A program made the position numbers and the translations under genes. Below, in pieces: positions 1-63,356 of a stretch of DNA of 64,000 bases (positions are counted from its first letter, which is position 1; each line of letters opens with the position of its first letter). The notes beneath the pieces were generated by a model. That model saw only the letters and a list, made by a program, of their open reading frames with translations. It did no database searches and was not told the origin of the DNA. The stretch is from Nemertoderma westbladi. Its lineage: Eukaryota; Animalia; Xenacoelomorpha. The stretch is from contig JAUCBJ010000550.1 in NCBI GenBank assembly GCA_032718475.1, positions 1-64,000 of the forward strand. The letters run 5' to 3'.

Positions 1-620
1 TAGATAGAATAAGTGATTTTTTAAGTCACTTTAGTTGATTATTTCAGCCTTTCTTTAGATTTTTATATTAGTTTTTCAGTTTAGTCTCAACCCCCCTCCG
101 GTTGGGAGGGAGGGGATAGATAGAGAGGGAATATTTTTAAAATATACTAAATATAATCAATATAACTATTCCGGATGCACGCCACCCCCCCCCCCCCCCC
201 CCCCTTAATGTAAATATATATTCGTTATTAAGGATCTCTCCTCCCTCATGTTGTTTGTAAAACTGCGGACCGGGTGTTTGAGTTACAGTAGATCAATAAC
301 CCGACTAACTTTTATTGTTTGTTTAAATCACTCATAAGGAACGTAAGTCATTAGGGCCTACTGAGACCGACAGTACAACATAAGGATGCTTACCCTATAA
401 TATGGCTCGCCCCAAAAAATAATTATATAGTCCAGCTAGAAACCATCGATTTCTTTACAAAACTATCATTCATTATTACCAAAACGCAATCGTTATACCG
501 GTAATGTAAACAAACCACTGCGATATATCGCCTAATAAGCCACGTCCTGTCTTCGCACTCAAGCAAACCGTCAGGTGGGATTGGGTATGGGGCGAGCCAC
601 GCATTGAGCGATATCTTCCT

Positions 621-1025
621 TACTACTAGGATCGGCATGCTGCATTGCAGCTGCATTTTTAAGAATGCTGTGCCGGCTTATCGACAAAATTGCACCGCCA
701 CAACTCCCTATCACCCATGACATTTGCTAGATCATCCGCATCTTCAAGGCCAGTGTCCTTGAAGATGCGTCTCAAGAAAGTCATGGGCTGTCCACCATGC
801 TTATTCACTCCATGAGGCTGCCAAAGTACAAGATTATGCACTGGCTGGTCCTCACGGCGAAAACAATGTCCTGCAAAGCGGATGCGATTTTGTTCTAGTG
901 TCAAGCTTGGGGGAACCAATGAGACACCTCCAATGATATATAGTGTCTGGTTGGAGATATGTGCATTGTACTTGACACAATGAACCCGGCGTAGCATTCT
1001 TGTGAATGTGCCATCCAGAGATTCA
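621..1025 (-). mobile_element. 3' fragment of RTE-clade (RTE-X-like) non-LTR retrotransposon
   Basis: The translation LDGTFTRMLRRV...RFAGHCFRREDQPVHNLVLWQP resembles the RTE ORF C-terminus. It has a short 3' UTR ending in (TAG)n. Related copies lie at 40006, 42155, 55980 and 58313. Confidence 0.8.
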
Positions 1026-4000
1026 TTTCTGCATTTCATGTCATTTCTGCACACATACTTTAGACAAAGAAATATATGGGAGAGACACTGTTACCCCTAT
1101 GTGATCGCATCAACCGAGCTTAGTTCCTTGAGCTTCTTTATTACTAACCAGCAATTCAAATTGAATAACACAAGATTTCTTCATGAGAGAGTAACACTGT
1201 GTGGATAAGGGATTGAACTGTGCAGTAACCTATTTAAGTTAGAACCCAGTCAAATACAACCGTATGATTGGCATAGAGCAGGAGCCTGTAAATCAATTAT
1301 ACCCTCATATAAATCATATAGGGTGCAATATTATGATGGATTGTACAGCTGGGTGTTGCTTAAGGGTTTTCCCCCCGCAAACTATATCTGGGACACGCGG
1401 TACAATTTGGAATAAACGAATTCAACCTACTTAGCTACGCACGCCAACCTAAGCGTGTGGGGTGCATTAATAAATAGGAATGCTTCGTGTGAGGGCTGAG
1501 AGAGCCTGTTCTACCTACCATCCCAAAGATATTGAATTAGATCGCCGCCATCTTGTGCAAATAAAGGGGGGCTTGTACGAGCGAAAATAGGAGATAAGAT
1601 ATTTCTGTTATCTAGAAGCCAAATTATCTCCAAAACAAAATACAATGAAATGCGAGTAAATATATAGAATTCCTGCAACTTTATATCAGTGTCTACGACC
1701 TGTTACGTCAGTTTTATTTTGTGTGTCACTTTGGCAGTTTAATTGGATGTGACATTTTAGACTAAGGGAATAAGCTTGTCTGGTTGCTCATTCAGTTCAG
1801 GTCCACTGTAATTTGCGACTAGACATCACATGATGTAGCCACTCTAGGCCGGCAATACAATTTCCTTGAATAATTACATTATTGATTATTTTTATTCCCT
1901 TTATGTGTCAATCATGAAGATTGCGGACGATGACTCAATATTTCATCACCAGCAGTAGTGCCCAGACAAATATAAAGAAAATTCAATGTATCTTAAATTA
2001 ATTATGCCATATCCTATTTCAAAGGTAATCATCCACACACGAACAGTAGTGCTAAGGTGATATAGGTGGACATGTCTCCAGAGAGTAATCATATTAAAAA
2101 AACGGTACAATGGTAACCTAGCTTCTTCTGGGGAAGTAAAGAACGTGTTGGTTGTTATGGTGTGTTCAACATTGGGAGTTAGTGTGCCCCCCCCTGCCTT
2201 TTAGGTGATAGTCAAGAGAGAGGAGACTATGGTTCGGGTTGCCTCAGGTGTTTTGTTTTCCGCGTTCGCCGAAAATTTATAAAAAGTAAAACGCGAAATT
2301 TACAAAACTCCTAGATGTACCGGTACTTAGCCCTAATACATAATACAAATCTACAAGCAAGCTAGAGACCAAGTTCCAAAGGTCGACTCCTCTACAAATA
2401 ACTCTCACAATAAATGACCCCCACCCCTCGCACCCTTATACCTTCACTTTAATAGTTGCTAAGATGCCCGAACAGGAAATAAATGATTTAAAATAAATAA
2501 AAGATTTTCTTAATATATTAAAGAAAAGAAAGTAATGTTGATCTAAACCACATTGTATGTTATATCGAATATCGCAGATAATAACAACTAGGGGTATAGT
2601 GAACGTAGCATATTGTATTTCTTATTGAGAGAATGATAGGTAGAAAAATATATAAAGAAAATGACCCAAGGAAATAGAACTATCATTACATCGACGCAAT
2701 TAAACCACCAAACAAATTATTTAATTATTTATATTTGTAATACTGATCTAGATACTCAGTGAAAATAACCGTCTGCCAATATTAATTTTAATAAATAATA
2801 ATGTATTATTTAAAAATGATATGTATGAGACACGTTATTGTGTGAATAACAGGGAATTATCAGTGTTACTAATAAAATAACAAACAAGTTTACCGCACAA
2901 CAAATATATATAGTATATATGCGGCCGTGCAATGGTTAATACCAAACACAACGATTGTCTTATTAACTATAAACAATAAATTATATCCGTATGCGAACAA
3001 TAAGCAATAAATATCAAATGTTGTATAAAATCAAATAATAATAACATTAATTAATCAAATCAATTTGTTATTCAAACCCAACCCAAAATAGCTTAAATAA
3101 CAAGACTAAGCGACATACAGACAAATTAAACCTTGGGATTTAGAGAACAATGTCATTCAGTCCTGGGAAGCTTCGAAGCTACTCAGTGAAATATAACTAA
3201 TTTATATATGGTGAAATAAGTAGAGCTTTATGTGATAAGAATAGTCATATTAAATTATCGAGTTGCGGCGATTTTATCAGAGAAGAGAAGATTAGATGAT
3301 ATAATAATGTTAATAGTATTTCATACCTGGATTAGGGTTTCATTTTAATATTAAATGTATCGTAACTTATGTATCATAAAAATCGACCAAAAGTAAGAAC
3401 CAAGCCCCCCCCCCCCCGCGTCTAATTATCAAAATTGTGAGCATAAACACGCACAAACCATAAACAAAATTGTGTTCGTGGGGAATTTACGGGACACCAA
3501 AGTGTAGCATGTACAGTACCGGTACATAGTATATCAAATAAAGATTCTATTAATTTCTTCCAACAGAGTTTGATTAATTTCGGTAAATGTTTGAACAATT
3601 TTAGCGCTTTCTCGAAGATAAATTGAGAGCGCCTGTTTAACTGATCGCAACTTAACTTGCTAACGCTAATCAGGCATTGTATACTTCGTGGCTCGCCCCA
3701 CATAAAATAAACGATACACAAGGAACTGTCTATAAAAAAAGATCTCCGACGGGTTTGCCTATCTATTAGTATGGAGATGTACATGGGGTAACAAAAAAAC
3801 TTACACCCTAAAAAATAAAGGTAACTAACAAAATAAGATAGGGTTAACTCACTATGGCACAATACATGATCCCAACCAGAACACGCAACATAGCACAACA
3901 ACCACTAAAATACCGCGTGTTAATAAAATCCAACCAAACCTAAAGTGTTGGTTATTAAATATTAATTAATTTTTATTTACAAAATAAAGCTAACAATTAC

Positions 4001-4276
4001 AGATGTTTAATATAATGATGTAATTAATTTCTAGAAAATTTCATTGATTTTCGTACACCTGTCATTTAACGGTAAACCAATTTCATTTTTTTACAATGAG
4101 ACAGAAGGATTTATAGATAATGTATCTAAATTATATTTAATATCATATTCTATCTATTATGGAAGATGATGTTACTTTTATACCACTGTCTGGCTGTCCA
4201 TATTCTATACATTTAGATGGGGGGGGGGGGGGGGGGGGGGTAAATAGACGCAAGAAAAATTAACCATTTTCCAGGG

Positions 4277-4759: not shown

Positions 4760-6833
4760 ACAAAAATAAACATGTAACTTGTTCGATTGGTTTTCGTTTA
4801 TTCATTTGGTTAGAATAAAGCGTCACTGCAACCTGGTCCATATTAATTAATTCGCCTAGATAGAACCCCCCCCCCCCCCCCGATTTACTAGACTAATTAC
4901 GTGTCAAAACACAGAAAACTAGCCAATATTGAGATTGAGACTTTATGTACATAGGGGTCTACAGAAATTCAAAGAATCAATTTAACACGAATTAATTTTT
5001 ACTGTGTTAAGTTCTTTAAAAATAAGAGAAAAGACGAAAACGTAAGACGCATACGACCTTTCCTACGCCTCGTACCGAACGTAACGAACAACATTTTGAG
5101 ATGTTAGTGTAATGGAATAAAATTGAAAAGGTTGCAATTTGAAAAGCGATAAACAAATATAATAAATAAATATATAACGGACTAACGCTGAATGTTTGCA
5201 GAAGATGTCTGTAAGTAAATGTCGGTTTTACGAACTTGTTAATTTTTAAATCCAAAAACATCGGTTTGGAAAACCCATATTTTCATATAGCCATAGTGGT
5301 ATATTAATTACAGAGGTACCGGTAGCTAGATGCCAATAGGTTATATGTGAGAGAAAATCTAATTCCTTGACCATGAACGCATTTGGTTGGGTCTAACGGG
5401 AATGGGCGAGCTTAAATTATCTTGATCGTAATTGGCTTTACAGGACTAAAGTTTTAAAATGTAAACAGTAAGTAATGTTCAGCATTGTTTTAACTAAATA
5501 AATCGATTACGCAAATCAGGCAGCCGACAAAACAGAACGGAAATTGTATTAAACGCTCTAAGTTCACTGGAATATAAAGACAGTAGTTAACCGGAAACTG
5601 GAGTAATTATTATTCCACATCAAGGTACCATAAAAACAAACAAACAACATATGTTGGTACGTAGATGTCGGCAACAAGAAACAGTGAAAACGATGGCTCA
5701 ATGTGTCTTCTAACAAGAATCTTCTATCAAAATCTTGCAAATTGCGCGCTTCTCAATTATAATATTCCTGATATCTTCTATGAAGAATCGTATTTAACAA
5801 AAAAGTCGTAGATGTCTGAGTAAATCACAATAATTGACTACAAGAAAAGATCAGTATGCTGAAATGTAATGAAATGACTAATGAGGCAGATGAATGTAAG
5901 AGTAATCCGTAAGAGTAAGATGTAAGAAGTAATCCTCTGCAAACATAGTTTTGACACTGGAAAGAGCAAAGAGATACAATTTATAATACATTTCGACCAA
6001 AACCCACAATTTTTTGTGATAAACATAGAAGCAACGTCATCATATATTCGAATATATGCAATATATAAGAAAGCACGCTGTTTTCATAATAATTTTAAAG
6101 AAATATGGGGAACAAGGTAGACATTCCCGTACCGCCTAAATTTATATAACATTAATGTTAAAACATTTCAGCCGTCGGATCAAGTATTGCTCTGCTCTGC
6201 CCCATACGATAAAGAGAAACTAGAGTACCGGTAATTAAAACCAACCGAACAGGCACCATATAAAGCTAAAGGCTATTTAATTTAATTCGTATAAAATTAT
6301 TACAATTTGCTACGTAGACAAAATATACCAAGTTGTCCAAGAATATATTATATATGCCGTTCTGTAATATTTAAAAAATATACCAAAACGTGTTTGTGGG
6401 TTATCTATCTGCTGCTGCTCGCACAGTAAAAGGTAACTCGTCAAACTCTAACTAACTCGTAACAACTGCCTCTATCTACATAATATCAACATCAATGGTC
6501 TCACCTATATGTACCATATACACCAAGAGCAAGGCTGCACTTACCTGTAAAAGTTAATGGCAGCGGAGAAACCTGTAGCTATGTCTGTCTGTTTTTGACA
6601 AGGATAGCAATGAGTTGTTAGGTAGATTGCGATCAACAAGAGGTACAACGCACTTACCGTACCTTTTAAATGTCCAACATATTAAATAATATGTCATATA
6701 TATAACAATAATATATCGAATATATACTATCTTATAATCAATCATAATATTTGAGAAACCGGCGTAGATTCTATGGACAACTTTGGTATATCAAGATTCG
6801 CAATGTTTTATTTTTAAACTATCGGTTCTGGTT

Positions 6834-9194: not shown

Positions 9195-10140
9195 ATGTGA
9201 AATTATTTTAAAACAGTAGGCTTAGGCTATGACTACGCCTCAGCCTGACAGCACTAAACTGTTTGTAAATATATGTCATATATCACTGTATCAGCATCAG
9301 CATGTACCGCATATGAAATATATGTAACTTTCTTCATCGTCTGATATTGAGGCAGAGTGAGGTGATATATAATAAATATGATGCAGCAAAATTCACTGTT
9401 ACCGGTACCGTATATAAAGAATCTGTCTGACTGTTTATGCCTATATCTGTATATGCTATACTATACCAGTATACCGGCACTACGCCAAATGTTATTTTGA
9501 ATATTGCCAGGTATATTTTTCACGCGTTTAAACTACGTGCCATCCAGGCTGCAAATGAAGTGCAAAAATCGCAACGCGTTATGCGCGTATTTGAAATAGT
9601 GCGCGGTAAAAGCGCGCGGAATTGAAATAAAGGTGCGCGAAATTATGTGAAAGACAACAAAAGTGCGCGTTGTGCGCAGTAATCTGTGCAAAAGATCAAA
9701 AGTCATAAAGTGCGCGTACAGGTGGATGAGGTGTAAAAAAGTTTACATGCATGCGAAGTGAGAAAAATTATTTGCCACAAAAAATTTCGCTCGCTTCGCT
9801 CGCGTCTCTTTCCATTTTGCATTGTCAGATTGTTCAAAATGTCGAAATTTCGCTGACTTTTAGTTTTGCACGCGTTTCTTTTTCATTTTGCACTGTTACA
9901 ATGAAAAAATTTGCTCGCTTCGTAAATTACCGTAATAAATAGAAAGATACACTGTAGAACCTTTCGAGTAACTGCAACAGATTTGTAGTAACTGTAGACA
10001 CTGTTCAGCTGTTTGGCCCTTCGCGCATCACGTGAGTTGCATGAAATATATATACGCACAGTATTGGCCCTTCGCGCAGCATGTTAGATACACACACATA
10101 ATGCATAACAGCATAGTATATAGACCAAAGCGTACTATAT

Positions 10141-11115
10141 GCAAGGCAGCAAGGCCATGCCATCGAGTTAACTGGGCAGCTGGGGGCGTTGACTGGACTG
10201 GGGCACTGGGGGCAAGATTTTTTTTACAACAATTTGATATTTTGATATGGGAAGAGTTCTATAAATTTTAATTTGCTGCAATTTGATCAATGGACGTACT
10301 TGAAGCCTCCTCGTTAAGTAAGATACAAAATTTTATGGTAGCTAGTGATTTAGGGAGGTTTAGCTAGTACTGTAGTAATTTCGACACTGGCTGACTGGTT
10401 CCGACATCCTACTGTTCTACTTCCTACAGTCCTATAAATATTTTCTAGTAGCTAGTTTATATTACTATTTATTTGTATAGAAAATGTTCCAGAAGATGTT
10501 AGGTAGTTTTTGAAAAAAAAAGTTTTGAAAATATTTTTATTGATTTTAAACACGTCCAGACGTCAGTACGTTTTAGAACGATTCCATGCGTTTTAAATAG
10601 AATCCATATTTTTTTCTAAAAAAGGTTCTAGAACAAAAAATATTTGTTCTACCGGTAAAACATAATTAAAAAAAAATTAATAGCTAACATATTCTGGAAC
10701 ATTTTCTATAGGCCTACAAACAAATAGTAATAAAAAGTACTGTAGCTAGTTAGCTACTAGGCCTACAAAATATTTATTGAAGGAAGTAGGATGTCGGAAC
10801 TCGGAACCAGTGTCGAAATTACTAGCTAAACCTACCTAAAACACTAGCAACTAGCTACCATAAAATTGTGTATCTTACCAAGGACAGAGGACTTACCGGT
10901 AACTTGACTTAACGAGGATGCTTAAATTACGTCCATTGACCAAATTGCAGCAAATGAAAATTTATAGAACTCTCCCCATATCAAACTGTCAAAATCAAAT
11001 TGTTGTAAAAAAATCTTGCCCCCAGTCACCGCCCCCAGTTAACTCGATGGCATGCAGGCATGGCCTTGTCTATAGTAAGTAGGCCTACCGCTACCGGTAG
11101 GCCTTGCCTTGATAT
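10141..11115. mobile_element. Foldback/MITE-like element with ~380-bp inverted arms
   Basis: 10141-10540 aligns to the reverse complement of ~10630-11115 (e.g. CATCGAGTTAACTGGG/CCCAGTTAACTCGATG and GAAAATGTTCCAGAA/TTCTGGAACATTTTC). Confidence 0.9.
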
Positions 11116-12139
11116 AGACACACGGATGGGACCTCGATCGATCACCACGTGAATTACGTAATACAGTAATAAATAGGCTGATAGGTAGAGACTTAGTACA
11201 ACCCATCGAGCAGCATGCGAGTAATATCCACAAATGCTGTAATGACTAATATGCAGTAAATATAGATAGATTATATATCAGTATATTATTGACTAAAATG
11301 GAATACTACAGTCAGACAGTACTAGGCCTATATAATAATAAACAAAATATACATAGCGGTTCGCTGGCATTTAGTCCTAAATCAAAAATTAAGTCACTCA
11401 CTGCTGCACTGTCAGACTGGTGGACCCTTCACGCGCAGGCAGGCAGGTGCAGCATGTGCAGTGCAGATGTCTGGATGTGTGTTACATGAAATAACGGGCA
11501 GAAGGCAGGAAGGGTGCAGGAGTCTGGGAGTGAGCCGGACACTTTACCACACTGCCATTTCAGCATTTCAACACAGGCCATTTCGACACAGACTGACAGA
11601 AATTCTGTAACGAAGTGTCTTGTGTCGGTAGTTCCTGATTTCTGCTACTGTCTGACTGTGTTATACTGTCAGACTGTTACAGTGTTAGGCCTATACTACT
11701 GTACTAAGGTGTCCTGTCAGCCTGTGCTGCCAGGCTGCTGTGTCAGTGTGTTCGGCAGTTTGGCTAGGCTAGACTCAACAGGTCAATTGTCAACTATCAC
11801 GCTGTCGTTTGCAATTTGACTGTAGGCAGCGAGAGAGACAGAAACCGGTCCAGTCTGCCAGTCCAGTCCGCCAGTGCAGTGACAGTACTGCAGTACCGGA
11901 ACTGCAGTACGACTGTACGAGTACAGCTGCTGAGCTGCAGTCAGTCCAGTCGTGTGTGTGTAGTCTAGCAGGCTGCGAGTTGAGTGCCTGGTTCTCCTCC
12001 AGTCTACCAGTACTGCAGTAGCAAAAAACTATTAGTTTCTCTCTTTCCGGTTCGATAACCTTATATATCCTTTGTGTAGCAGCGCAGCTACTATATATTA
12101 TAATGTAGCTGTACTGCTGTAGTTATAGGGGTGGGGTGG

Positions 12140-13450
12140 GCGCTTTAGGTCAATGGGTACAAACAAAGGTCAATGGGTACAACGAGTCAAAGGGAACAAA
12201 ACGTGTCAAAGGTTACAACATGAAAAGGTACGACGAGACAAAGGGTACAAACCAGGCGGTCAAAGGGTAGTTAGTTTAGTTTATTTATAGACCAGACCAG
12301 CACATAATATAATTTAAACACACAAATTAAATGTACAATGTTGAACGTTCTAGTCTACGAGTTACTAATATTTCAAATAATATAAATTATACTATTAGAA
12401 TTTAAACACTCAAATTAAATGTACAACGTAGTCTACGAGTTACTAATATTTACCGTAATAGTCCCAAGTATTATCAATAATTTGATCAAAATAAATAATA
12501 CCAATTACAACTTACAGGTAATGTCCGAAAAACCTAAAACCTATATTATCGAAAGTGAATATATCATGGTCGAGTATTTTCCATACGGCATTCAAAACAA
12601 TAAATATAATACTAGTGGTGTCCTAAAAAGAAATAGATAGATAATTAAATAAATATATACAATAATTATTGTTGCTAATAACCGAAAACAATTGTTTGCA
12701 TGTATTTCAGTCACACTAAAATAGAGTAAGAATTATATTAAATCTCTCAAGGAAAAGCCTCAGAAAGTTTGTATGCCATTTCTGCACCGTCAACCCACGA
12801 CAATTTTCCAAATTCACATATGTCGTCCAAGGGACATTCGCGACGAATAGTGTCTGTCAGCTTACAGGCTGTACAAAAACGTGGTACAACATGTGGTACA
12901 AAACAGGACGTCAAAGGGTACAAACAAAACGAGTCAAAGTGTATAACATCAAAGGGTCCAACGAGTCAAAGTGTATAACATCAAAGGGTTCAACGAGTCA
13001 AAGAGTACAAACCAGGCGGTTATTTAGTTCGTATATTATTTTGGTTAGGGTTAGTTGGTCAGGCCTCAACCATAACTGATTAAAACTGTCATGTAACCCG
13101 AACCCTAAATCATAATCTAAGAAATTTAGCGGAATTTCTGACATTATTGACATCTAGGCCCGAAGGGCCGTTAACTTAGGATGATGACTTAGACTTAGGG
13201 TTACATGACAGACAGTTTTAATTAGGGTTGAGGCCGCCACTACAATAACCAGCGAGGTTCATACAGTATAAAAATCCCTGTTGTTCACTTTGTCCTGTTG
13301 TAGGCCTACCCTTTCTATAACATTTGTACCCTTTGACGTGGTTTTTGTACCCTTTGACATGCCTGTTGTTCACTTTGACCTGTTGTATCCCTTTTTCCAT
13401 TTTTGTACTCTTTGACTCAATGTACCCGCATGTACCTACAATTGACTCGG
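12140..13450. mobile_element. Foldback-like element with repeated subterminal CAAAGGGTACAA motifs
   Basis: CAAAGGGTACAA-like repeats at 12150-12270 and 12880-13015; inverted TTGTACCCTTTG copies at 13320-13440; internal GGTTAGGGTTAG. Confidence 0.55.
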
Positions 13451-13527
13451 AATCGTGGGGTGGGTAGTTTGAGTTAATAATGGCGTTATTTGGGTGGGAT
13501 GGTGGTCATACAGTACTGTACGTACAG

Positions 13528-13679
13528 TAGGGCTCCCAAACCACTGCGTTATTTAACGTGTTGCGCTATTTCCAAAAGTTTGCCTTGCGTTATTCGACTA
13601 TTATTGAGCAAAACCCATGAAAATTGCGTTAACAAAAAATTATCAGTTTTTGCGTTATATATATGTGAATGAGCCCCTA
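13528..13679. mobile_element. Small MITE-like element (TAGGGCTC...GAGCCCCTA ends)
   Basis: Short imperfect terminal inverted repeats and internal TGCGTTA repeats. Confidence 0.35.
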
Positions 13680-14241
13680 TTGCATTCCCAATACAGTAGG
13701 CCTACAGTAAAGGAATACTGTAGGGTCAATATAATTTATGAAAACAATTACGTTGAAATTACACATGCATACATCTCTAGCAATTCATATTATATTGAAC
13801 CTTTTAGACCTTAAATATAGATGCATTAGCAGCTAATTATTCTCCAGTCAGTATAATATTGTGTGATCAATATTTGAGTTATACTGTACAGAAAATTCTA
13901 ATTGTTCTCCTCCTGCGAACCTATCTCTGAACTGAACTGAATTCCAGTTCGTTTATTCCAAAAAGCCTGAAAAAGATTATTTTTTTATTACTATTATTAA
14001 TCAATTAATAAGTGTACAAAAAAATTACAGCTATGAAATTAATTGTTATTTTTTTCAATTAATTTTTTTAGATTCTATGAAGTGTTTTCGTTGCAATAGC
14101 TAGTGTTTCATTCCAAAACTTACATATATATAGCTAATTTTACTCGCGATATTTTTACCCGCGATATTTTAATTCTCTATTTTTTATTCTCGATATTTTT
14201 ACTCTCGAAATTTTAAGCCCCCCCCCCCCCCCCCCCCCCCC

Positions 14242-14841
14242 TTAATATTAATAATATAGTAGCACATTTTCTGACCAAAAAGTCGAATTTTTGAAACATA
14301 TCCTACCTGATGCAGAATTTCATGCTGAATCCAAATATGGAAACCGTTTTCCCATATGCTTATCTCTAAGAAAAGAGCTTTAGAATGAGCCTAAAACGGC
14401 CTAAAACGGCCACTAGAACTGGAGATTATACATTTTGAAGATCTCCGATGACCGATAAGTCTATTCCGTGTAATCCCGCAAAGACCGCAGAGTCGCTTAT
14501 TCGAATCCCGTCTTCATTCCGGAGACTTGAAGTTGTCTTATAAACTGACAAGTAGGTCCAATAATCATAAAAAAATACCTTCTCAATTAAAATTTTGTGC
14601 TCTTTCTCGTGGAGACAACCAATTGGCACCACTGGGCACAGAAATTTGCAGAAATTGAATGCAAACCCCAAACTTCATCGCCTTTGCCGATATCGCGATA
14701 TATCGGAGCCAGTATCTTCTATCCCAGATATCTCGAAAACTAATCTTTCCATATTTGGATTCAGCATGAAATTCTGCATCAGATAGGATATGTTTCAAAA
14801 ATTCGTCTTTTTGGTCAGAAAATGCGCTACCCTCCCCTTAA
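14242..14841. mobile_element. TIR MITE with TTAA flanks (Kolobok-like), inserted into a 15-bp tandem repeat
   Basis: ~85-bp inverted arms 14259-14345 vs 14748-14830; TTAA at both ends. The ACTCTCGATATTTTT repeat continues on both sides (14140-14215 and 14852-14960). Confidence 0.7.
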
Positions 14842-15549
14842 CTCTCTATAATTTAACTCGCGATATTTTTACTCTCGATATTTTTACTCTCGATATTTTT
14901 ACTCTCGATATTTTTACTCGCGATATTTTTATTCTCGAGATTTATAAACTCGCGATAAAAAATGTAAAAAATTATTTTAAAGAATTAATTTAGTCATATG
15001 TTCATTGACTGGACTGCACAAAATAGTTAAATTAACCGATTAGAAGGTATAACAAACATTTTAAAAATTATTATTATTATTAATAACTATAGACTTCGCG
15101 GACAAGTGAGATGAGGGCTACAGTAATACCGTACAGATACTCTTGGTAGATATTTTCCCACGAAATAAATATGGTTAATTTTATATTGTATCAATTCATT
15201 TTATTATTATTATTATTTAACATAATTAATTATATAATTATACATTAATTTATAATAAATTACAAACATATAATACTGATATATAGATATATAAATAAAA
15301 CTGTATACTATTGATATACAGTAACAGTACCGGTAATATATAAAACACACAAAGGTACCGGTATCTGCAACATGAAATAATTATTATTCCCTCATAATTA
15401 TAGTATTGCTACATATTGGAAAGTAGAAATGGACGAATATAATTTAACTATAAAAATTCTATAACGAAATCAAATTTCTGCTATCCAAAAGAGCCATGCA
15501 TGTCAGTAATCAGCTGACGACATTTACTGTACATTTACTGTTTACTATA

Positions 15550-15766
15550 GCTGGGCGCGGGTGTTCCGACCAGAAGGCCGTGAGTTCGAACCCCAGAGCA
15601 ATCCAGTATTATTTAAGCTGAGTCAGTACCCCAGTGGAGTACAAGGACAGTCTAATCTGATATAACACCGGTAGTGTAGCGGCCGTCTGACTGTCAAAGT
15701 GAAAGTATCTTGCCAGTATACATACCGCGCTCATAGGTTGAGCTACTTCCCTGTGCTATGGATATG
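15550..15766 (+). mobile_element. tRNA-derived SINE-like element (decayed)
   Basis: Pol III B-box GAGTTCGAACC at ~15582 in a GC-richer island; no complete cloverleaf. Confidence 0.45.
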
Positions 15767-15814
15767 TACCAAGGACTACCGGTACTCTACTTAGAGTACC
15801 GATAGTCCTTGGTA
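15767..15814. mobile_element. 48-bp TA-bounded hairpin mini-element
   Basis: TACCAAGGACTACCGGTACTCTA-CT-TAGAGTACCGATAGTCCTTGGTA: 23-bp stem with one mismatch. Confidence 0.75.
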
Positions 15815-16439
15815 GGCGCAGTAGGCCTATATTATAACTAGAAAGGATTGAATAGCAATAGAGAGGGAATGAGAGTTTTCGAACTTGGAATTAATAGTGT
15901 CGAGTGTCGACTCAACCTTCAATAACAGATAGAGATCAAGAGAGTTGTATCCGGGTTTACTTTACAAGTTGTACACAAAACAAATACCAATTTTTCTTGA
16001 ATTTAATAAATTTGTTATCCTCACCTGACGTGGTTCCTGAGAAATCCCCATTCTGAGGGAAGCAAATACAGCATAGCAGTACGTCAGCTGATCACTGATT
16101 GAATACAAACTTATCGTACCAAAGCGCTTCTACACTACTACTAATTTCCAGATACATTATACAACAAACTACTAACTACATACACTATGGACCATGTATA
16201 TTATATATACAGTAACCCAATTAGACTGAACTACTAATTCTAGAGCTATTAATAGCTACTGTACCTATGTAGGCCTATATTATATTAGCGATAGGCCTAC
16301 CTCTTCGAGTGTAAATAAAACGCACGATTAATCGCCATCTCAGGCTAAAATTAGCAAAAATATTGCATCTGGAATATTATGGTGACGATTATCATTTATT
16401 GTTAAAATTTAAAAGTTTTAAAGTACTGTAGGCCTATTA

Positions 16440-17150
16440 TTGGCACAATTCCGACATAAAATTGTTTTAAAGTATTATTGGCACAATTCCGAAAATTCAA
16501 CATTTTAAAGTTAAAATCATTTTAAAGCATCATTGGCACAATTCCTAAATATAACATTTTAAAGTTAAAATCGTTTTAAAGTATTATTGGCACAATTCCG
16601 AAATTTAACATTTTAAAGTTAAAATCGTTTAAAGTATTATTGGCACAATTACTACAAAATCGTTTTAAAGTATTATTGTCAAAATTCCGACATTTAACAT
16701 TTTAAAGTTAAAATCGTTTAAGGTATTATTTGCACAATTCCGACAAAATCGTTTTAAAGTGTTATTGGCACAATTCCGAAATTTAACATTTTAAAGTTAA
16801 ATCGTTTAAAGTATTATTGGCACAATTACTACAAAATCGTTTTAAAGTATCATTGGCACAATTCCTAAATTTAACATTTTAAAGTTAAAATCGTTTTAAA
16901 GTACCATTAGCACAATTCGTAAATTTAACATTTTAATGTTAAAATCGTTTTAAAGTATCATTGGCACAATTCCTAAATTTAACATTTTAATGTTAAAATC
17001 GTTTTAAAGTACCATTAGCACAATTCCTAAATTTAACATTTTAATGTTAAAATCGTTTTAAAGTATCATTGGCACAATTCCTAAATTTAACATTTTAAAG
17101 TTAAAATCGTTTTCAAGTATTATTGGTACAATTCCGAAATTTAACATTTC
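16440..17150. repeat. AT-rich ~54-bp tandem repeat (with ~37-bp deletion variants)
   Basis: TTGGCACAATTCC..TTTAACATTTTAAAGTTAAAATCGTTTTAAAGTA repeated ~14 times. Confidence 0.92.
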
Positions 17151-17633
17151 TAGCTTATCAGTTAAATCATATGCTCAGCTGTCTGTTTTGAACTGGCTTG
17201 TGTAATAATGGGGTCCCAAACTGTAGTACAGTAGGCCTACAGATAACACCGAAAAACATTTAACTGATTTTTTTATGATAATGCTGAAAAAAGTAAATCC
17301 TCTCACTGAACTCAGATACATATTTCGATTCGACAATCGTTTTAATGTGAAATATTTTTATTTCAAATTCACTGTTTACAATATCTGGTCATTTTCCATT
17401 CTGATAACTGTAATGGTACGTCACTGACAATTTGCTAAATTACAACATTTTCTGATAAATGAAATTGTTCATAATATACATTACACTGACTAACAATATC
17501 TAAACCACAAAGTACCTCCATTCGCATTCGTAACTGAACCAAAACATTTAGACCAAATCATTTGGAATTCCTCAGGATGGACACCTGTGTATTAACCAAT
17601 TATTCATTCAATCCAATATATTTTCAAGCAAAT

Positions 17634-20600: not shown

Positions 20601-22301
20601 TTTAAGAACCTTTATACAAAGTTTATCCTCATTTTGCTCTTCGAGATGATCTGTGTGTTTGATGAATGTAGCTATGAACCCACCAGATTCACAGTGTAGG
20701 TATGGCTCTGTGTCTTTAGGGAAAAGAAAGGATGGATTGTGCAGGACATCAACCAGCACTGAGAGTTCGGCTTGAATGAACATCTTGAGGCGATTATCAA
20801 GACTTTTTACAACATTGAGCAGGCCTCCAACAATATTGCGATAATCTCTCGACATTCCGACCAAAGAGTCTCGATCAAGAGTACGGCTGCGGAAAGGTTT
20901 CAAGAACCCCCACTTACTGGAATACATATTGGAATGGAATTCGACATCTTTGGGGATTGGTAATTCCTGTACGTGGCAAATATTGATGAGAACTTTAACG
21001 CAAGACTCAACAGCAAACCGTTGATTCCCTGTTAACCAGGAATAAGAAGCAATAGTGCTCATTGATTCAACTAGTTTTTGTATTGCCGTTTTTCTTAATT
21101 GAACGGCAGAAGTTTGATCGAAATAGGGACTCTTGAAAAAGGCGTTTACAACATTAGCTATTGTATCCGTAACATAATGTTCTAGTTTGACGTCAATATG
21201 ACAGCGATCGGAACCGGGCGAGCTAATTCGTCTGATATCCAGGAGGAAGTTGTCAAAAAGTTGCCACATATGGTTGGAGATATATATTTCCTTCATTTCA
21301 ACTTCTGTATCGATGTAGCAGTGGTTGAGAAAATTTATGTATGAATCCTTCACCTCTGGAAGGCAGTCTGGATGAACAACAACAGCTGTTATTGTGTCAA
21401 GTGGTAGGAGAGAGTGGCATTTAATTTCTGTGAAGACATTCTTACCTTCCGTGCATACTGCCAACAAACGCACAAGGTGGATATGGAAGAGTAGAGGCGA
21501 TGTTGGATTGGTTGTATCTCGGAACGACCGCATCATAGCAACCAAAGTATCCAATGCCTGCACATCGTTATAGAAGAGAAGCACTTCATCACCCGAGTTG
21601 CTAAGTTCAGCCATCAACATATCTTGCGTCTTTCTAATGAATCGACCGTCACATTTCACTATTGTTTGCAAAAACTTAATGTACGTAATATTTCTGCCAT
21701 AAACTTCAATGCAACGTACAATATGCTGCACAATTCGCTCACCAACACTGTTACACAACTCAAAATTGTTAAAAAATATTAGTCGACACGTTTCTGTTTC
21801 CAAGAGAGAAAGAAAACTTCGGTCACCATGCTGGCAAAACATAATCCTATCTAGATAGCGAAATAGTAACGACTGGTTGTTGGAGTTGTTCAGACAAAGA
21901 TTTTGCAGGAAACTGTGGCATAAACGTTTGATCTCGTTCATCCGTAGATCGAAAGGATCGCAACTCATGTCGAGCAGCTCGAGAACAACCGAATGAGCGC
22001 CCATATTCTTGAGTAGCTGTTGTTCGTGTCTCCTGCTGCGTCTACCGGTAGGCCCATAATCGACACACAGTTTTATCAACCTGATTAAAATGTTCTGCAG
22101 TCGAACGTAGTTCTGTAAGGAACTCGATTCTATTCGAGGTCCGTGTTGTAAGTCTAGAGGAGCTCCTTCTTTGCCGAGTTTCTGGATTACATTCTGGCCT
22201 GTCTCGTTGTCCTTCCGTTTACTAATTTTCTCCCCTTTCGCTGGTCTATAGATCCACAACTCCGATTTCTCCTCTAGTAGACGAATTTCATCCAGATCTC
22301 T
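17634..22301 (-). CDS. ITPR: IP3 receptor terminal exon (4668 bp; ARM2-3/RIH-associated region, 6 TM channel, Zn finger, C-terminal coiled coil)
   Basis: Acceptor CAG|AGAGATCTG. Motifs LLAVCTEGKNVFTEIKC, FLQLLCENHN, GGLGLLG, TEYCQGPCHDNQ, pore GLRNGGGIGD, LIFGVIIDTFADLR, CFIC...HINLEHNMW. Confidence 0.98.
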   Translation of the reverse strand, partial: RDLDEIRLLEEKSELWIYRPAKGEKISKRKDNETGQNVIQKLGKEGAPLDLQHGPRIESSSLQNYVRLQNILIRLIKLCVDYGPTGRRSRRHEQQLLKNMGAHSVVLELLDMSCDPFDLRMNEIKRLCHSFLQNLCLNNSNNQSLLFRYLDRIMFCQHGDRSFLSLLETETCRLIFFNNFELCNSVGERIVQHIVRCIEVYGRNITYIKFLQTIVKCDGRFIRKTQDMLMAELSNSGDEVLLFYNDVQALDTLVAMMRSFRDTTNPTSPLLFHIHLVRLLAVCTEGKNVFTEIKCHSLLPLDTITAVVVHPDCLPEVKDSYINFLNHCYIDTEVEMKEIYISNHMWQLFDNFLLDIRRISSPGSDRCHIDVKLEHYVTDTIANVVNAFFKSPYFDQTSAVQLRKTAIQKLVESMSTIASYSWLTGNQRFAVESCVKVLINICHVQELPIPKDVEFHSNMYSSKWGFLKPFRSRTLDRDSLVGMSRDYRNIVGGLLNVVKSLDNRLKMFIQAELSVLVDVLHNPSFLFPKDTEPYLHCESGGFIATFIKHTDHLEEQNEDKLCIKVLKILKEMLIPGVSIEDVEFNLKSKQLRFSLLKWYFGTLNVHEVNGEFKVLPAKGRSDLSLSQIQRNLDSQGASRLIVNLVIHTTDIAIFIGTVELGIALLEGGNGIIQQSFFELLCSENKAEKFFAVFYDKINEAMAEIKAGVSIHTVTEDEQPRKQSLKRPGTFTSNLNKSAGDNYSSTKAILGISAQSQSILDVETNKSEPRKTLSSPVQVMQPILRFLQLLCENHNIKLQNYLRSQESRTNFNMVCGCLQFLDCICGSTTGGLGLLGLYINEYNVHLVNQTLQTLTEYCQGPCHDNQTAITTHESNGIDIIIALVINDINPLGFKHMDLVLDVKDNASKLLLAIMESRNDSETAERILYNMSTKDLIDVIKTAYSLERCSSMESEISSDDIISGKESSSQSVGHNVYILAHQLAQHNKELMTELKTDGKLENTSDEALSYYAKRTAQIEVVRAGHSLEQIVFPIPRVCQFLTDETKNQAYLTTERDDQGSKVPAFYQHCDDMFWEMKWQCRLREHSVLFFLSQRMSLWGSIAFNLAVISNLIVALFYPFEATDYDLDKRILILIWTALFLSTLTLIFIPRITGLRSFVLSLIFTLIYSLGIVPVLFTLGVINVMNKIIFIISYLGNRGTISKGISKVISDGEFLYHIGYTVIIVLGIYVHPFVYSILLFDVVYREETLFNVIRSVTRNGRSIVLTAVLAVILVYLFSIVGYLLFREDFMVEVDPVPQEAGACLDDKCDPDDDGVHHDGYSFVTEIINGTNVIQDDDDLKELACDTLIMCIITTLNQGLRNGGGIGDVLRHPSSSEPLFIVRVIYDLLFFFIVIIITLNLIFGVIIDTFADLRGDKQQRDEILKNTCFICSLDRSAFDNRTVSFEEHINLEHNMWSYLYFIVLVRVKDPTEFTGPEWYVHGLVESRNHDWFPRMRALSLAADDGDSQESELRSLQVQLAATTERVAALSGQLLELRDQIADQKKVKQRVNLLSLQQDN

Positions 22302-58395: not shown

Positions 58396-59741
58396 TACCA
58401 CATGGTGAGATTCAGCATTCATGATAAAAAAAAAGATGCGATGTTGGTAGACCAGTCTTGTTCTAGAATTAACCCGAATGCCGGTACACCTGGAATCCCT
58501 CCAAACCACGCACGCGTTTGGACTTTACTTGGTCATATCAGAGTATATATATACCCTGTAAAGTTATGAGATATGTGAGACCCATCAAGGGACCTCGTGT
58601 CTTCTGCCGTAAAAGCCTAGCAGATGTTGCCAAATAGCAGCACAGGCTCTACATTAAGTGAATTAACGGCACCAGGAATACATTTCGTTCAGAGAAGGTT
58701 TCATTCCATGTGATTCCCATTTCCTTGATAGTTTATGGTTTGTTGTCCTTTCGTTCGTACTCGGAGGTCTTCAACGGATCTCCGAATCCTTGATCTAGAT
58801 ATCAGTAGCCAGCAGGTCGGTAACCTGCTAGGGGGAATCAAAGTTAGAGTTCGATTTTGGTCTTTGTGGCATTTACAAATTGGACGCTGCCTGTTCCAGA
58901 ATGTGGAGTAAGCTTTCGGCACAAGATTTAACTGAAATTTAGAATTAAAGGCCTCTCACATGTAAAGTAAGATTTCCTCTACTTCTACTAACAGAGGCTG
59001 GTTGTAATTACACACCATCTATATTATGTTGTTCAAGAGATATTGGCAGCAAATAGTTCACCAGAGTAATGGAGCTTGGAGCATGGACCTTGTTTTGGCA
59101 AATTGTTGTTGTCAATGTGAATTCCTTCAAGAATTATGCTGGGGAAGAATAAGTATCAATAAAGTTATTGCTATAAGATACTTTCTGTTTCATAACAAGA
59201 ATACGATAATTTAATGTTTCCTATATTTAGTTGAACAATAGCTATAATTAACGAACCAATCATCATATTCATCTGAAATTTGGTAGGGGTTACCTACTGT
59301 ATGTACATCGCTTAATTTGAAATTATACATACAGTCGGACATTCTATAGTGATTCGGTTCAGACGGTTCTATAATTGTACCCCTTTACTAAAGTTAATCT
59401 ATACTTCTTGCTGCGCGAAGGCCCCATGGACGTGTTTCCCTGTATCATATTTTGTCACATGTATCATATTTTGTCACTTGAATTATATTTTGTCACTTGT
59501 ATCTGATTATGTGATGTAAATTATAGAGATGATAATATCTGTTTTTTAATATTTTAGATTCTTACTTCTTCAATAGGCTGTTATTTACAAACAAACATTC
59601 CACACAAATAATCAATTTCAAGACGTTTATTTCTCTGTGAACTAACTCGCATGAGAGACTATTTTAGCGAAATCTCGTTTCGAGACATAGGTAAATTCAA
59701 GTATCAGATGAGAATTAACCATCGAGCATCACACCTCTGTA

Positions 59742-60485
59742 ATGAGCCGTGTCTTGTCATTCGGCATTGGCATTACTACTCTCTTCGTTGGCTTGGTACA
59801 TGGCGTTAATGTTACCTGCCGCCATGGACGCCTGCAGACCATGTTATCCTCCAACCATGACAATGTGGCAGATTTGAACTGGGATTGGCGCGACACTGGG
59901 GGATCGTTAGTAGCAGGTTTAGGATCTGTCTCGGATGAGCAATGCCCAGTTTGTCATATGTGGGAGTCAATGTCAGCAACCTTCTTGAAGCAATACCCTG
60001 AGTTAAAGGTTATGGCCGGCGCGAGATACGAAACCTGCGCATACGGTGGTGGTTGCGAAGCCCAATCCGAACACCCGTGCACCAACTTCACAGAGTTTAT
60101 GCAGGAGTTTTTAGACGCGGAATACGGCACAGGAGTAACAGTGTCGATTATAGAGAGCTTTTGCATGGAAATATGCTGCGAAGGGGCGGAAGTCTGCAAC
60201 TCAATTGACCATCCCGAATTCCATTTACCCGCTTATATAAACAGCGACGGGACCTACAACTGGGAACATCCAGTCTGGCAACTTGATCTGGATGGAAACC
60301 CGATACCTTACAATAGAGCGGGACCTGAAGATTCAACAACAACAACAACAACAACTACTACTACTGATCCTCCTACGACCGCAACACCGGGCAGTTCTAC
60401 ATTGGTTGAAAGCTTCGCTAACAAAATATTTGGAAGTTTCAATGTTTTTCTTGTTGCTTTTATGGGTTTATTGTTTTTCCATTGA
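59742..60485 (+). CDS. Secreted, probably GPI-anchored Cys-rich protein, Ly6/uPAR (three-finger)-like; antisense in ITPR intron
   Basis: N-terminal signal peptide, 10 Cys ending in CCEGAEVCN (LU-type CC-xn-CN), Thr-rich stalk, and a hydrophobic C-terminus with no cytoplasmic tail. Confidence 0.75.
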   Translation: MSRVLSFGIGITTLFVGLVHGVNVTCRHGRLQTMLSSNHDNVADLNWDWRDTGGSLVAGLGSVSDEQCPVCHMWESMSATFLKQYPELKVMAGARYETCAYGGGCEAQSEHPCTNFTEFMQEFLDAEYGTGVTVSIIESFCMEICCEGAEVCNSIDHPEFHLPAYINSDGTYNWEHPVWQLDLDGNPIPYNRAGPEDSTTTTTTTTTTDPPTTATPGSSTLVESFANKIFGSFNVFLVAFMGLLFFH

Positions 60486-60682: not shown

Positions 60683-62024
60683 GGGCATTTCCACAGAAAA
60701 TGGGACACGATATGAAAATAAAACTTTAAAAAATAAGCAACATGTCATGATTTAATGGGTAAAATCTCATAAATTTTTCGAATTTGACAAAATTTACATT
60801 GATTTGAGGGTATAAAGTAGGAAATTTTACGATTATATCGACCATCATCAAGACTAATGTAAAAACAAAAAAAAAATACCAAAGGCAAAATATTTTTGTT
60901 ACTGTTTATCCATATAGGCTATCCTTGGTATCATTGTAAACAGCCGTAAATGCACATTCCAATGAGGTAGTTCTACGCCATAAACATAGAACGCTTCTAA
61001 TACAATAAGCATTAAAAGCTACCTGTATCCAATTGTAACGTCCGACACATTTTTTACATTTTTTCTCAAATACTTATCTATTGTATGGCAAACCATATCA
61101 AAATTAAAATGACTCAATGCCGACGTAAGATGGCGTCTTTTGTGTCATTTATAACAATCCAGGCTACTATAAAGTCTGTGATTTCAGTGATTGAAGTTCA
61201 GTAACGTCCGACACCTGTAACGCCCGACACTATTATTATTATGTATTTAATGTCTGAATTGCAGTGTATAATGTAAAGGCATATTCCAGAACTGTATTGT
61301 TTATATGCATGTAGGCCTACTACTAAATACTAGGACCTAAAACATAAAATCTTTTTGTCCATATGATTTTCAACAATAAAATAAATATATAAATAAAAAT
61401 AGTTTTCAATAATTGCGATTTACAATTCAAAATTCACACCTTAGTATTTTGATAATATATTTGGTAATTCTTGGTGAAATTTAAAATGGTTTTCAGATTC
61501 GGAATCTACAGATGAAGGCGGTTCTAATGATATCTAGAGTACATTCCATAGACAAAAAATATAGCCGACATAAAGCCAAATAAAGCCATGGTGGCTAAAT
61601 ATTGCTAATTTTTAAGTAACGTCCAACACGAAACGTCCGACACCATTCCGCACAACTTTGAATTGCAAATGTCGGTTTCAAAAGATCTGCAGTGCAATTG
61701 CGAAAACCTTTTCAAAATATAATAGTTTAGCTATAATTTGAGCTCAACAATAATAACATACCAGTCTTCGGCATTAATTGCAATCAAAAATAAAATTTGT
61801 GGAATAAAAAGTGTCCTATTTTTGTAACGTCCAACACCTTTTTAAAAGTCAACTTTGTAAGAAGAATCACGTTTCCCAATGCAAAGTATTTGCGCTATTC
61901 TGAAAAATTAATAAATTGTTTCATTTATTCAATGCAATCTGATGTCAAAAGTATTTTCGGAAATTTAAAGAAAAACATTCAAAATTCGAGAATGTCCGTA
62001 ACGTCCGACACCGTGGAATTGCCC
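60683..62024. mobile_element. Non-autonomous TIR element with repeated TAACGTCCGACAC motif
   Basis: Ends GGGCATTTCCAC / GTGGAATTGCCC; the motif recurs ~7 times (61037, 61202, 61218, 61617, 61632, 61825, 61999). Confidence 0.7.
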
Positions 62025-63356
62025 ATACGAAACCCATACGAATTTAATTATTTCGTTTTGGGTATTTTATGTAGAATCTTAAAATTAAAGTCAGTATTAA
62101 TTATATACTGTAATTAACACAGAGCTAATAACAGTCTGAACATTGACCGCACTGGATATAGATCGTCAGACTTTGTGCGTAATCCCTGGCCTAACGGTCG
62201 AAGAAAATTTACTTTTTTACTTTTACTTGTTGTCTGTAACAAAATCTCAATTTCATTAAAAAATAGCGTTTGAACAATATACCGGGAAAAACAGCAGTAC
62301 TACGGTTATCGCTTTGTCAGGAAATTATGATAACCAGTTTTGTACTATACCGAACTAGACTGCTGGATATTTAATGAGGTAATTTATTTATCATCATAAG
62401 TATAAAATTAAGACATCACCTGCTTAAAATACGGCTAACATTCTTTGGTGACATTTATTTAAATTTTAATTTTGTATATCTCCTATAAGTGAATTAATAT
62501 CTATAATGTTTAATTATTATATTAAGTTTCAATCAGTATAATATTTTTCTTATAAATAGACCTCAAGTGTCGGTTTTACTAAACATACCATTCCAATGGT
62601 GTAGACTGTGAGGCTGGCTGTTCTTACGTCATGTTACTTACCGCACCAAGACTCATTAAAGTGTCAACCGGGAGCAACTTAGTAAAACCTGAGAAGCAAT
62701 TACAACAATGGCTCATAATTATGAAAAAGATTTTTGTTTTTCATAAAATACGAATTTATTATTCCAGGATTAGCATCACCTCATTAGCATCATTCCAGGA
62801 TTTCACATCCCCTTGCTCAGGTTAACCACAGTACTGGTCTACTGTTTGAGGATTCATACATACATATACATACCAGATAGTGCAGGTAAACGTTCAGACA
62901 CCCTCGCCGTCGCCATACGCCTCCCTAAAACTTACACTGCATAAAAGCAACGAATTACGGTTAAGTTGATTGATGACGGATATGAAGTCTACCGTGAAGT
63001 AGGCCTACACTGTACAGGAATACAAGTGACATTCCTCAAATTTAGCAATAAAGCTAGTGTAGTTGAAGGTAAAAGACGTCATATTTTGGCAAATACCTTG
63101 TTTCCCTTGTATCCATGCGTTTGTAAGGAAAAAGTCAAATCTTATATACGTTAAGACGTCGGTAATAAATCGCTCGGAAGGCAATATTTTAGAATAAAAG
63201 ATTACAAAATACATGACATTTAAACTTGACAAGCACCAACTATTGGTTGTATTTGAAAGATCCTGAAATAGAACCGCCCAAAACTGCATGATTATTTTTA
63301 ATGTTTTCGTACCACCATACTACAGTATAAATATATTTATAGACCCCCCAACTTAC

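What the first reader, a model, noticed from the sequence alone, without database searches (positions are those of the whole stretch)
496..63007. Window-wide excess of TA-anchored micro-insertions (TAGGCCTA, TACCGGTA, TACAGTA/TACTGTA, TAGCTA): candidate transposon-footprint mutational system
Seen: by manual count TAGGCCTA occurs 17 times (10709, 10758, 11080, 11323, 11686, 13301, 13697, 15822, 16270, 16292, 16429, 17232, 26009, 41563, 50970, 61312, 63000; none in CDS). TACCGGTA occurs 16 times (496, 2318, 3517, 5317, 6226, 8942, 9050, 9400, 10650, 10894, 11092, 15328, 15356, 15777, 22043, 51720). A rough expectation at ~33% GC is below 1 each. The motifs chain through shared TAs: TACAGTAGGCCTACAGTA (13692), TACTGTAGGCCTA (16424), TACAGTACCGGTA (3512), TACCGGTAGCTA (5317). 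Established: Tc1/mariner excision (e.g. Sleeping Beauty) leaves TA-CAG-TA or TA-CTG-TA. Inference: several TA-targeting families with different ends (CAG, CC/GG, GG/CC) repeatedly insert and excise, and each scar creates a new TA target. The GGCC and CCGG classes are not textbook footprints and could point to an uncharacterised mobile system.
Basis: partly seen in the sequence, partly recalled or inferred. Interest (0 to 1): 0.85.

Follow-up and report, generated by a model that had tools for sequence, protein, structure and literature searches.

The report
Several transposon scar types at TA
Short TA-bounded words are tens of times too common in this animal's non-coding DNA; four of them can be seen as six-base additions at a plain TA, and they are most likely scars left when several different cut-and-paste jumping genes cut themselves out, although none of those jumping genes was found.

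Summary
TACAGTA/TACTGTA (42 vs 11-12) and TAGCTA (21 vs 8-10) are also enriched, and no other TA-NNNN-TA palindrome comes close. Flanks are unrelated. At four sites inside repeats (10650, 10709, 10758, 13301) another copy or arm lacks the six bases, so these are real indels at a duplicated TA. Against a process active now: 0 of 11 unique-DNA sites were empty in other samples, and the TACCGGTA in the IP3-receptor exon is not an insertion. The GGCC class prefers G-TA-C/A-TA-C targets (12 of 18); the CCGG class does not (3 of 16), which points to separate families. Best reading (0.75): accumulated excision footprints of IS630-Tc1-mariner/pogo elements. CAG/CTG is the textbook Sleeping Beauty footprint, and CCG-ended TA-targeting pogo elements are published. 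The GGCC donor is unknown; no donor or transposase lies in the window and no genome is held. The mechanism is known; the density and the GGCC class were not found in print, but this scan reports the pattern in several other genomes.

The parts
10709..10716 (.). TAGGCCTA scar in the right arm of a fold-back repeat; the left arm has a single TA (6 bases fewer)
   Evidence: arm-to-arm alignment
10758..10765 (.). TAGGCCTA scar; the left arm lacks 6 bases here (one flanking base also differs)
10650..10657 (.). TACCGGTA scar; other copies of the repeat family run on from the first TA without CCGGTA
   Evidence: table 7: loose ends behind 10651 in 25 contigs of X1 and 20 of X3 (consensus agreement 0.64-0.67)
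13301..13308 (.). TAGGCCTA scar in a repeat family; part of the family and the neighbouring internal duplicate lack the 6 bases
   Evidence: table 4: 6 left out at 13301, depth 550 of 1322 (X1), 422 of 731 (X2), 236 of 829 (X3), X4 no cover; alignment 13274-13337 vs 13359-13416
10133..11077 (.). high-copy fold-back (MITE-like) repeat bounded by TA and CTATA arms; supplies the empty-site comparisons; not a donor of the GG or CC scars
   Evidence: depth about 22,000 vs about 56 in unique DNA (X1)
9222..17633 (.). scar-dense interval between the 5' end of the MAP7-like ORF and the 3' end of the IP3-receptor gene: 12 of 18 GGCC, 7 of 13 non-coding CCGG, 19 of 42 CAG/CTG and 11 of 21 GC sites, in 7,580 of 38,044 non-coding bases
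   Evidence: limits chosen after seeing the data
13692..13709 (.). chain CAG-GGCC-CAG through shared TAs
16424..16436 (.). chain CTG-GGCC
17227..17239 (.). chain CAG-GGCC
3512..3524 (.). chain CAG-CCGG
5317..5328 (.). chain CCGG-GC; present in all four runs, with one substitution at 5319 in X4
9281..9290 (.). polymorphic 8-base indel readable as TA-TCACTG-TA versus TA (or a 5-base duplication plus CTG); absent in X3 and X4
   Evidence: table 4
352..360 (.). single TAGGGCCTA, a 7-base variant that hints at G-rich donor ends
   Evidence: a second such form in one X4 contig at window 9597 (table 7)
22043..22050 (-). TACCGGTA inside the IP3-receptor exon: not an insertion, the protein aligns without a gap
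496..63007 (.). span of all 18 TAGGCCTA and 16 TACCGGTA sites

Best explanation
These words include real small insertions at a duplicated TA, and they are most likely the accumulated excision footprints of several TA-targeting cut-and-paste transposon families of the IS630-Tc1-mariner/pogo group. Shown: enrichment, unrelated flanks, six-base indels against an empty TA at four sites, and class-specific target contexts. Inferred: an element inserts at TA and duplicates it; on excision the transposase cuts 2-3 bases inside each end; end joining keeps those bases. CAG ends give TA-CAG/CTG-TA. CC(G) ends would give TA-CCGG-TA and GG(G/C) ends TA-GGCC-TA, either by filling two 2-base overhangs or by annealing 3-base overhangs through their self-complementary last two bases (CG, GC). 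Each scar adds a TA. CAG/CTG and CCGG scars also create the G-TA and TA-C neighbours that the GGCC class prefers, which would explain the chains. Some scars were then copied inside other repeats.
For: Enrichment about 13-50 fold for the two octamers; of the 16 TA-NN-N'N'-TA palindromes only these two are strongly enriched. Empty TA seen at 10650, 10709, 10758, 13301. Best flank similarity among 2,278 pairs is 14 of 20 AT-rich letters. TACAGTA/TACTGTA are the canonical Sleeping Beauty footprints, and Tc1/mariner footprints equal the first or last 2-4 bases of the element (PMC6943129, passages). Tc1 leaves 2-base 3' overhangs (PMC4490562, passages); taCATGta is a known but rare Tc1 footprint (PMC3520976, passage). 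CCG-ended, TA-duplicating pogo elements occur in animals (PMC7386202 supplement 3 rows). GGCC sites sit in GTAC/ATAC in 12 of 18 cases against 14% of all TAs (P 5e-7), CCGG sites in 3 of 16 (Fisher P 0.007). One-mismatch neighbours: GGCC 9 vs 8.7 expected, CCGG 22 vs 11-12, compatible with different ages.
Against: No donor: no TA-flanked inverted-repeat pair with GG, CC or CAG ends that is a plausible element, and no transposase domain in 121 short ORFs or 9 other ORFs. No filled allele, and 0 of 11 unique sites empty in divergent haplotypes; none of the 12 indel rows in 4900-9500 is +GGCCTA or +CCGGTA at an orthologous site. At 13301 much of the family depth was not scored as lacking the motif, so direction rests on the internal duplicate. 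In worms the usual Tc1 footprint is +4 (PMC12632400, passage), yet TAGGTA/TACCTA is not enriched here (18 vs 20-22). In rice, natural excisions are mostly messy (8 of 94 perfect; PMC4423477, passages), unlike these uniform scars. The CCGG neighbour excess is only P 0.06 after allowing for background misfit.
Confidence: 0.75

Rival explanations
1. A transposon-independent repair or replication process (for example polymerase-theta or other end joining at breaks in TA-rich DNA) writes these short inserts.
For: No donor found. The region has many other short duplications and indels, including 8-base inserts readable as a 5-base duplication plus CTG (9281, 10365).
Against: Theta-mediated inserts are copied from nearby sequence and are varied (PMC4490562, passages); here the cores are fixed and flanks unrelated. 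One class equals the published Sleeping Beauty footprint. The palindromes do not extend into the flanks (0 extra bases at 21 of 34 sites, 1 at 12, 2 at 1).
Confidence: 0.1
2. The words are selected protein-binding sites that cluster upstream of a gene.
For: Clustered upstream of the MAP7-like ORF; kept at 11 of 11 sites in other haplotypes apart from one substitution; TAGGCCTA shows no excess of decayed copies. PMC3520976 read the analogous TACATGTA excess in Phytophthora as a binding site.
Against: They appear as whole six-base indels inside high-copy repeats (four sites); three or four unrelated cores share the same TA...TA frame and chain through shared TAs; they also lie in introns across the window.
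Confidence: 0.06
3. Most of the excess comes from passive copying inside repeat families or local duplications rather than from independent events.
For: Six of the 34 sites lie in or at the edge of one fold-back repeat and one in a second repeat; 13301 seems shared by several family copies; 15777 is mirrored in a local 48-base palindrome; 8942 and 9050 share downstream sequence.
Against: At least 11 sites lie in single-copy DNA by depth; flanks are unrelated; at 10650 the other family copies lack the motif.
Confidence: 0.06

Closest known systems
Sleeping Beauty canonical excision footprints TACAGTA/TACTGTA (PMC6943129, passages read)
   Same: Identical 7-base words, enriched 3.5-fold here; terminal bases between two TAs.
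   Different: Here they are inherited and accumulated in a natural genome; no CAG-ended donor was found in the window.
Tc1 footprints of C. elegans: 2-base overhangs, usual +4 TACATA/TATGTA, rare taCATGta (PMC4490562, PMC12632400, PMC13148408, PMC3520976; passages read)
   Same: TA-xy-y'x'-TA geometry of the +6 form.
   Different: Cores are GGCC and CCGG; TACATGTA is absent (0 vs 1.3); the +6 form dominates and the +4 GG/CC forms are not enriched.
pogo superfamily, Passer and Fot-like families (PMC7386202, passages and supplement 3 rows)
   Same: TA duplication and CCG-starting inverted repeats in animals fit the CCGG class; one GGG-starting, TA-duplicating Fot-like element (Entamoeba) was among the rows seen.
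   Different: No footprints appear in the passages seen; other GGG/GGC rows seen have TAA or TAAA duplications; membership of the unknown donors is untested.
Genome-wide natural excision scars in rice (PMC4423477, passages read)
   Same: DNA-transposon excision as a source of indels, often near genes.
   Different: Rice scars are irregular deletions and fillers; here they are uniform 4-6 base inserts dense enough to top the k-mer list.

Membership tests
IS630-Tc1-mariner/pogo excision footprint | TA on both sides, single TA at the empty site | tested here: met
   four sites (10650, 10709, 10758, 13301)
IS630-Tc1-mariner/pogo excision footprint | core equals the terminal 2-4 bases of a known TA-targeting element type | tested here: inconclusive
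   CAG/CTG equals Sleeping Beauty; CCGG fits published CCG ends; for GGCC only one GGG/TA row from a protist was seen; none tied to this genome
IS630-Tc1-mariner/pogo excision footprint | resident element with matching ends, TA duplication and DDE/D transposase | tested here: inconclusive
   none in the 64 kb window; no whole genome held
IS630-Tc1-mariner/pogo excision footprint | same site seen with the element present, or empty, in another allele | tested here: inconclusive
   0 of 11 unique sites differed in three samples; contigs drop rare variants
IS630-Tc1-mariner/pogo excision footprint | independent events in unrelated flanks, avoided in coding DNA | tested here: met
   TAGGCCTA 0 of 18 in ORFs; 3 TACCGGTA in ORFs, one shown not to be an insertion
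IS630-Tc1-mariner/pogo excision footprint | transposase-dependent formation, with cut position 2-3 bases inside the ends | not testable with these tools
   needs an excision assay
hAT/RAG hairpin footprint (P nucleotides; definition from own knowledge) | palindrome mirrors the flanking host sequence | tested here: not met
   cores fixed; extension 0 bases at 21 of 34 sites, at most 2
PIF/Harbinger footprint (ends GG(G/C)CC, target TAA/TTA per PMC4423477 Table 1) | 3-base TAA/TTA duplication | tested here: not met
   only TA is duplicated at the three GGCC empty sites; T-TA-A context in 1 of 18
transcription-factor binding site | conserved in place between species | not testable with these tools
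   no related genome; IP3R equidistant (55-62%) from all annotated animals listed

The most novel reading that the evidence does not exclude
An undescribed TA-targeting transposase family with GG-starting ends and a G-TA-C/A-TA-C target preference made the GGCC scars, and scars of the CAG- and CC-ended families build its preferred target. The families then feed one another and have written about 1% of the non-coding DNA here, leaving a countable, roughly datable record of germline excision by families that may have vanished.
Probability: 0.35. Interest if true: 0.62.

Novelty: new variant of a known kind. Interest (0 to 1): 0.42.

Why it matters
Excision is normally invisible in a genome sequence. 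If these words are footprints, they count past excisions family by family, give each transposase's target preference and end-joining outcome without experiments, and explain why such palindromes top motif searches and get read as binding sites. A rough sum puts the inserted bases at about 380 of 38,044 non-coding bases (1%). The mechanism is textbook, and the scan already holds similar reports from other genomes, so this window adds a multi-class example rather than a new system.

Tried and rejected
No whole genome is held, so no genome-wide count or donor search was possible. A metagenome scan with a pattern from the fold-back repeat found 0 loci. No RNA holder listed. I guessed from gap counts that deletions at 5317 and 6311 would match the motifs; one search placed them at 4953 (10 bases) and 6402 (a TATC duplication) instead. 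A GGC insert at 9460 that would make TAGGCCTA comes from a match of about 33 bases to another locus and was not counted. Two divergent contigs (X3, X4) carry a net 5 extra bases in 15249-15440, but the row was hidden, so the letters are unknown. TACGTA, TACCGTA, TAGGCTA, TAGGTA, TACATGTA and longer TA-CAG/GG/CC-Nk-TA forms are not clearly enriched. Candidate donors rejected or left open: fold-back 10133-11077 (CT ends); 14260-14829 (TA|GC arms, but it runs on into a C-rich end and TTAA, so more likely a TTAA element); 15767-15814 (TA|CC..GG|TA, 44 bases, single-copy depth, more like a local palindrome); 51241-52890 (ends do not fit a TA duplication cleanly). Hairpin (hAT) and Harbinger origins failed their tests. 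Literature: searches listed no paper describing TAGGCCTA or a genome-wide excess of such footprints (one search listed 40 of 283 papers and 25 of 63, judged by title and abstract start; no search used TACCGGTA as a term; most subscription papers and bioRxiv supplements are not covered). In the pogo supplement I saw 62 of 99 'GGG' places, all 5 'GGC' places and only a few of 330 'CCG' places.

Full report
Setting. The window is animal DNA: an IP3-receptor gene on the minus strand, two otopetrins, a myotubularin-like gene, a MAP7-like ORF and a reverse-transcriptase fragment. The IP3R is 55-62% identical to vertebrate, mollusc, annelid and arthropod proteins alike (120 best of 2,415 hits listed), so no close annotated relative was found. 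No whole genome is held.

Observation. After masking ORFs and tandem arrays (38,044 bases), counts against Markov-2/Markov-3 expectation are: TAGGCCTA 17 vs 0.37/0.81, TACCGGTA 13 vs 0.46/1.00, TACAGTA+TACTGTA 42 vs 11.1/12.3, TAGCTA 21 vs 8.0/9.5. Of the 16 TA-NN-N'N'-TA palindromes only these two are strongly enriched; TACTAGTA (4 vs 0.9) and TATATATA (17 vs 6.8) are mildly up and TACATGTA is absent. TAGGCCTA avoids ORFs (0 of 18, P 0.004). Three TACCGGTA lie in ORFs. The one at 22043 is not an insertion: the IP3R aligns to the solved IP3R type 1 sequence without a gap there. Those at 8942 and 9050 are in frame in the N-terminal part of the MAP7-like ORF, each just before an in-frame ATG, and may be duplicates of each other or lie in a leader.

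Are they insertions? The fold-back repeat 10133-11077 allows an arm-to-arm test (252 matches, 16 mismatches in the aligned core). At 10709 one arm has TA-GGCC-TA and the other a single TA; at 10758 the same six-base difference holds with one flanking mismatch. The arms differ by about a dozen other indels, among them an 8-base block at the TACTGTA of 10368 and a 30-base block that contains the TACCGGTA of 10894, so not every motif there is a simple scar. Contigs of four public runs (three samples at most) were laid on 4900-16430. Other copies of a repeat lack six bases at 13301 (depth 550 of 1322, 422 of 731, 236 of 829; no cover in X4), and the window's own internal duplicate also lacks them; the remaining depth suggests that the scar has itself been copied within the family. 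At 10651, 25 contigs of X1 and 20 of X3 leave the window and continue with the sequence that follows the motif, so the family lacks CCGGTA there. Only 12 of 104 indel rows were shown in that call. Thus 4 of the 34 sites have a visible empty counterpart.

Are they polymorphic? In single-copy DNA 4900-9500 all 12 indel rows were shown; none removes or adds GGCCTA or CCGGTA at an orthologous site, and the five TACCGGTA there are present in all four runs (one substitution at 5319 in X4). Six more sites in 15328-16299 are spanned without a six-base gap by X3 or X4 contigs (table 8). So 0 of 11 sites were empty. X1 and X2 are nearly identical to the window and may include its source. The scars are therefore older than the split of these haplotypes, which differ by up to about 2% (21 differences in 928 bases, X4). 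One polymorphic indel, 8 bases at 9281, reads as TA-TCACTG-TA against TA and could be a longer remnant of a CAG-type end; a 5-base duplication plus CTG fits equally.

Separate families. Collapsing each motif to its target, TAGGCCTA sits in GTAC in 7 and ATAC/GTAT in 5 of 18 cases (background 3.9% and 10.3%; P 5e-7 together), TACCGGTA in 3 of 16 (Fisher P 0.007). Four of the 12 GGCC junction contexts are supplied by neighbouring CAG/CTG words, at three sites. One-mismatch neighbours show no excess for GGCC (9 vs 8.7) and a possible excess for CCGG (22 vs 11-12; P 0.003, or 0.06 after allowing for background misfit), compatible with GGCC being younger. Ten chain junctions were found: CAG/CTG-GGCC 4, CCGG-GC 2, CAG/CTG-GC 2, CCGG-CAG 1, CAG-CTG 1, and no GGCC-GGCC. 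This fits the idea that other scars build the GGCC target, but the numbers are small. All four classes concentrate 3-8 fold in 9222-17633, upstream of the MAP7-like ORF (limits chosen afterwards).

Mechanism. Tc1/mariner transposases cut a few bases inside the element, and end joining leaves the first or last 2-4 bases between two TAs; for Sleeping Beauty this gives TACAGTA or TACTGTA (PMC6943129, passages). Tc1 leaves 2-base overhangs (PMC4490562, passages), usually repaired to +4 (PMC12632400 and PMC13148408, passages) and rarely to taCATGta (PMC3520976, passage). By inference, the +6 classes arise from filling two 2-base overhangs (GG or CC ends), or from 3-base overhangs CCG or GGC that anneal through their self-complementary last two bases. 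The second route would unify all three classes under one 3-base cut and fits the lack of TACATGTA and of +4 GG/CC forms. The first is favoured for GGCC by two TAGGGCCTA forms (window 352; one X4 contig at 9597), which GGC ends cannot give. TAGCTA may be a trimmed product or a further family; it has no clean empty-site test here.

Donors. None was found: TA-flanked inverted pairs with GG, CC, CAG or GC ends gave only internal arm matches, motif-to-motif matches, LINE copies and a 44-base local palindrome, and 121 of 128 short ORFs scanned (seven that were scanned before or lay within larger ORFs or arrays were left out) gave no transposase domain. A 64 kb window cannot exclude donors elsewhere. 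In print, CCG-starting, TA-duplicating Passer and Fot-like pogo elements are listed for animals; among the GGG/GGC rows seen, one Entamoeba element has GGG ends with TA, one primate row is doubtful, and the rest have TAA or TAAA (PMC7386202 supplement 3).

Novelty. Eight literature searches listed no description of TAGGCCTA footprints or of such a genome-wide excess; coverage is limited. A rice study shows natural excision scars genome-wide, but irregular ones (PMC4423477, passages). This scan holds 15 notes with TAGGCCTA in at least 5 other genomes, some of them bacterial and unrelated, and two report pogo/Fot-like donors with G-rich ends; these are unchecked leads, not support, but they make the pattern common rather than special to this window. 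Verdict: real, probably excision footprints of several IS630-Tc1-mariner/pogo families; new variant of a known kind; interest 0.42.

Noticed in passing
window 17634-22328 (-), with small exons at about 24648-24917, 26071-26502 and 55724-56011: The IP3-receptor gene ends in one 4.7 kb ORF (1,563 codons) while its upstream part is split into small exons over at least 35 kb; this looks like 3'-biased intron loss.
   Followed up: partly
window 28753-30414 (+), 37130-38836 (+), 52950-55043 (-): Two intronless otopetrin genes and an intronless myotubularin-like gene lie between IP3-receptor exons, so they appear nested in its introns, the last on the same strand.
   Followed up: partly
window 30680-36448 and 44921-49460: Large minisatellites (23-base unit, about 248 copies; 15-base unit, about 303 copies) with extreme GC skew; further arrays at 4276-4759, 16457-17149 and 43884-44450.
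   Followed up: no
window 14213-14845: Very high-copy repeat (depth about 144,000 vs 56 in X1 in the bin 14525-14909) with 85-base inverted arms, set between TTAA words in a 15-base tandem array; Kolobok-like by recalled features, untested.
   Followed up: partly
window 15767-15814: Near-perfect 48-base palindrome bounded by TA; its first ten bases recur at 10876 at the start of a 30-base block present in only one arm of the fold-back repeat, and both lead to a TACCGGTA.
   Followed up: partly
window 621-940, 40003-40298, 42217-42332, 56002-56159, 58313-58394; RT fragment 42809-43111: Several truncated copies of one repeat, 79-95% alike, next to a reverse-transcriptase fragment; probably 3' ends of a LINE.
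   Followed up: no
window 26997-28580 and 51241-52890, 56450-57391: Nested fold-back or MITE-like repeats of other families, with unresolved ends.
   Followed up: no
window 59712-60485 (+): 257-codon ORF with a signal-like start, several cysteines, a threonine run and a hydrophobic end; no Pfam match.
   Followed up: partly
window 15249-15440: Contigs of X3 and X4 carry five more bases than the window here; the letters were not shown and could be a polymorphic CAG/CTG scar.
   Followed up: no
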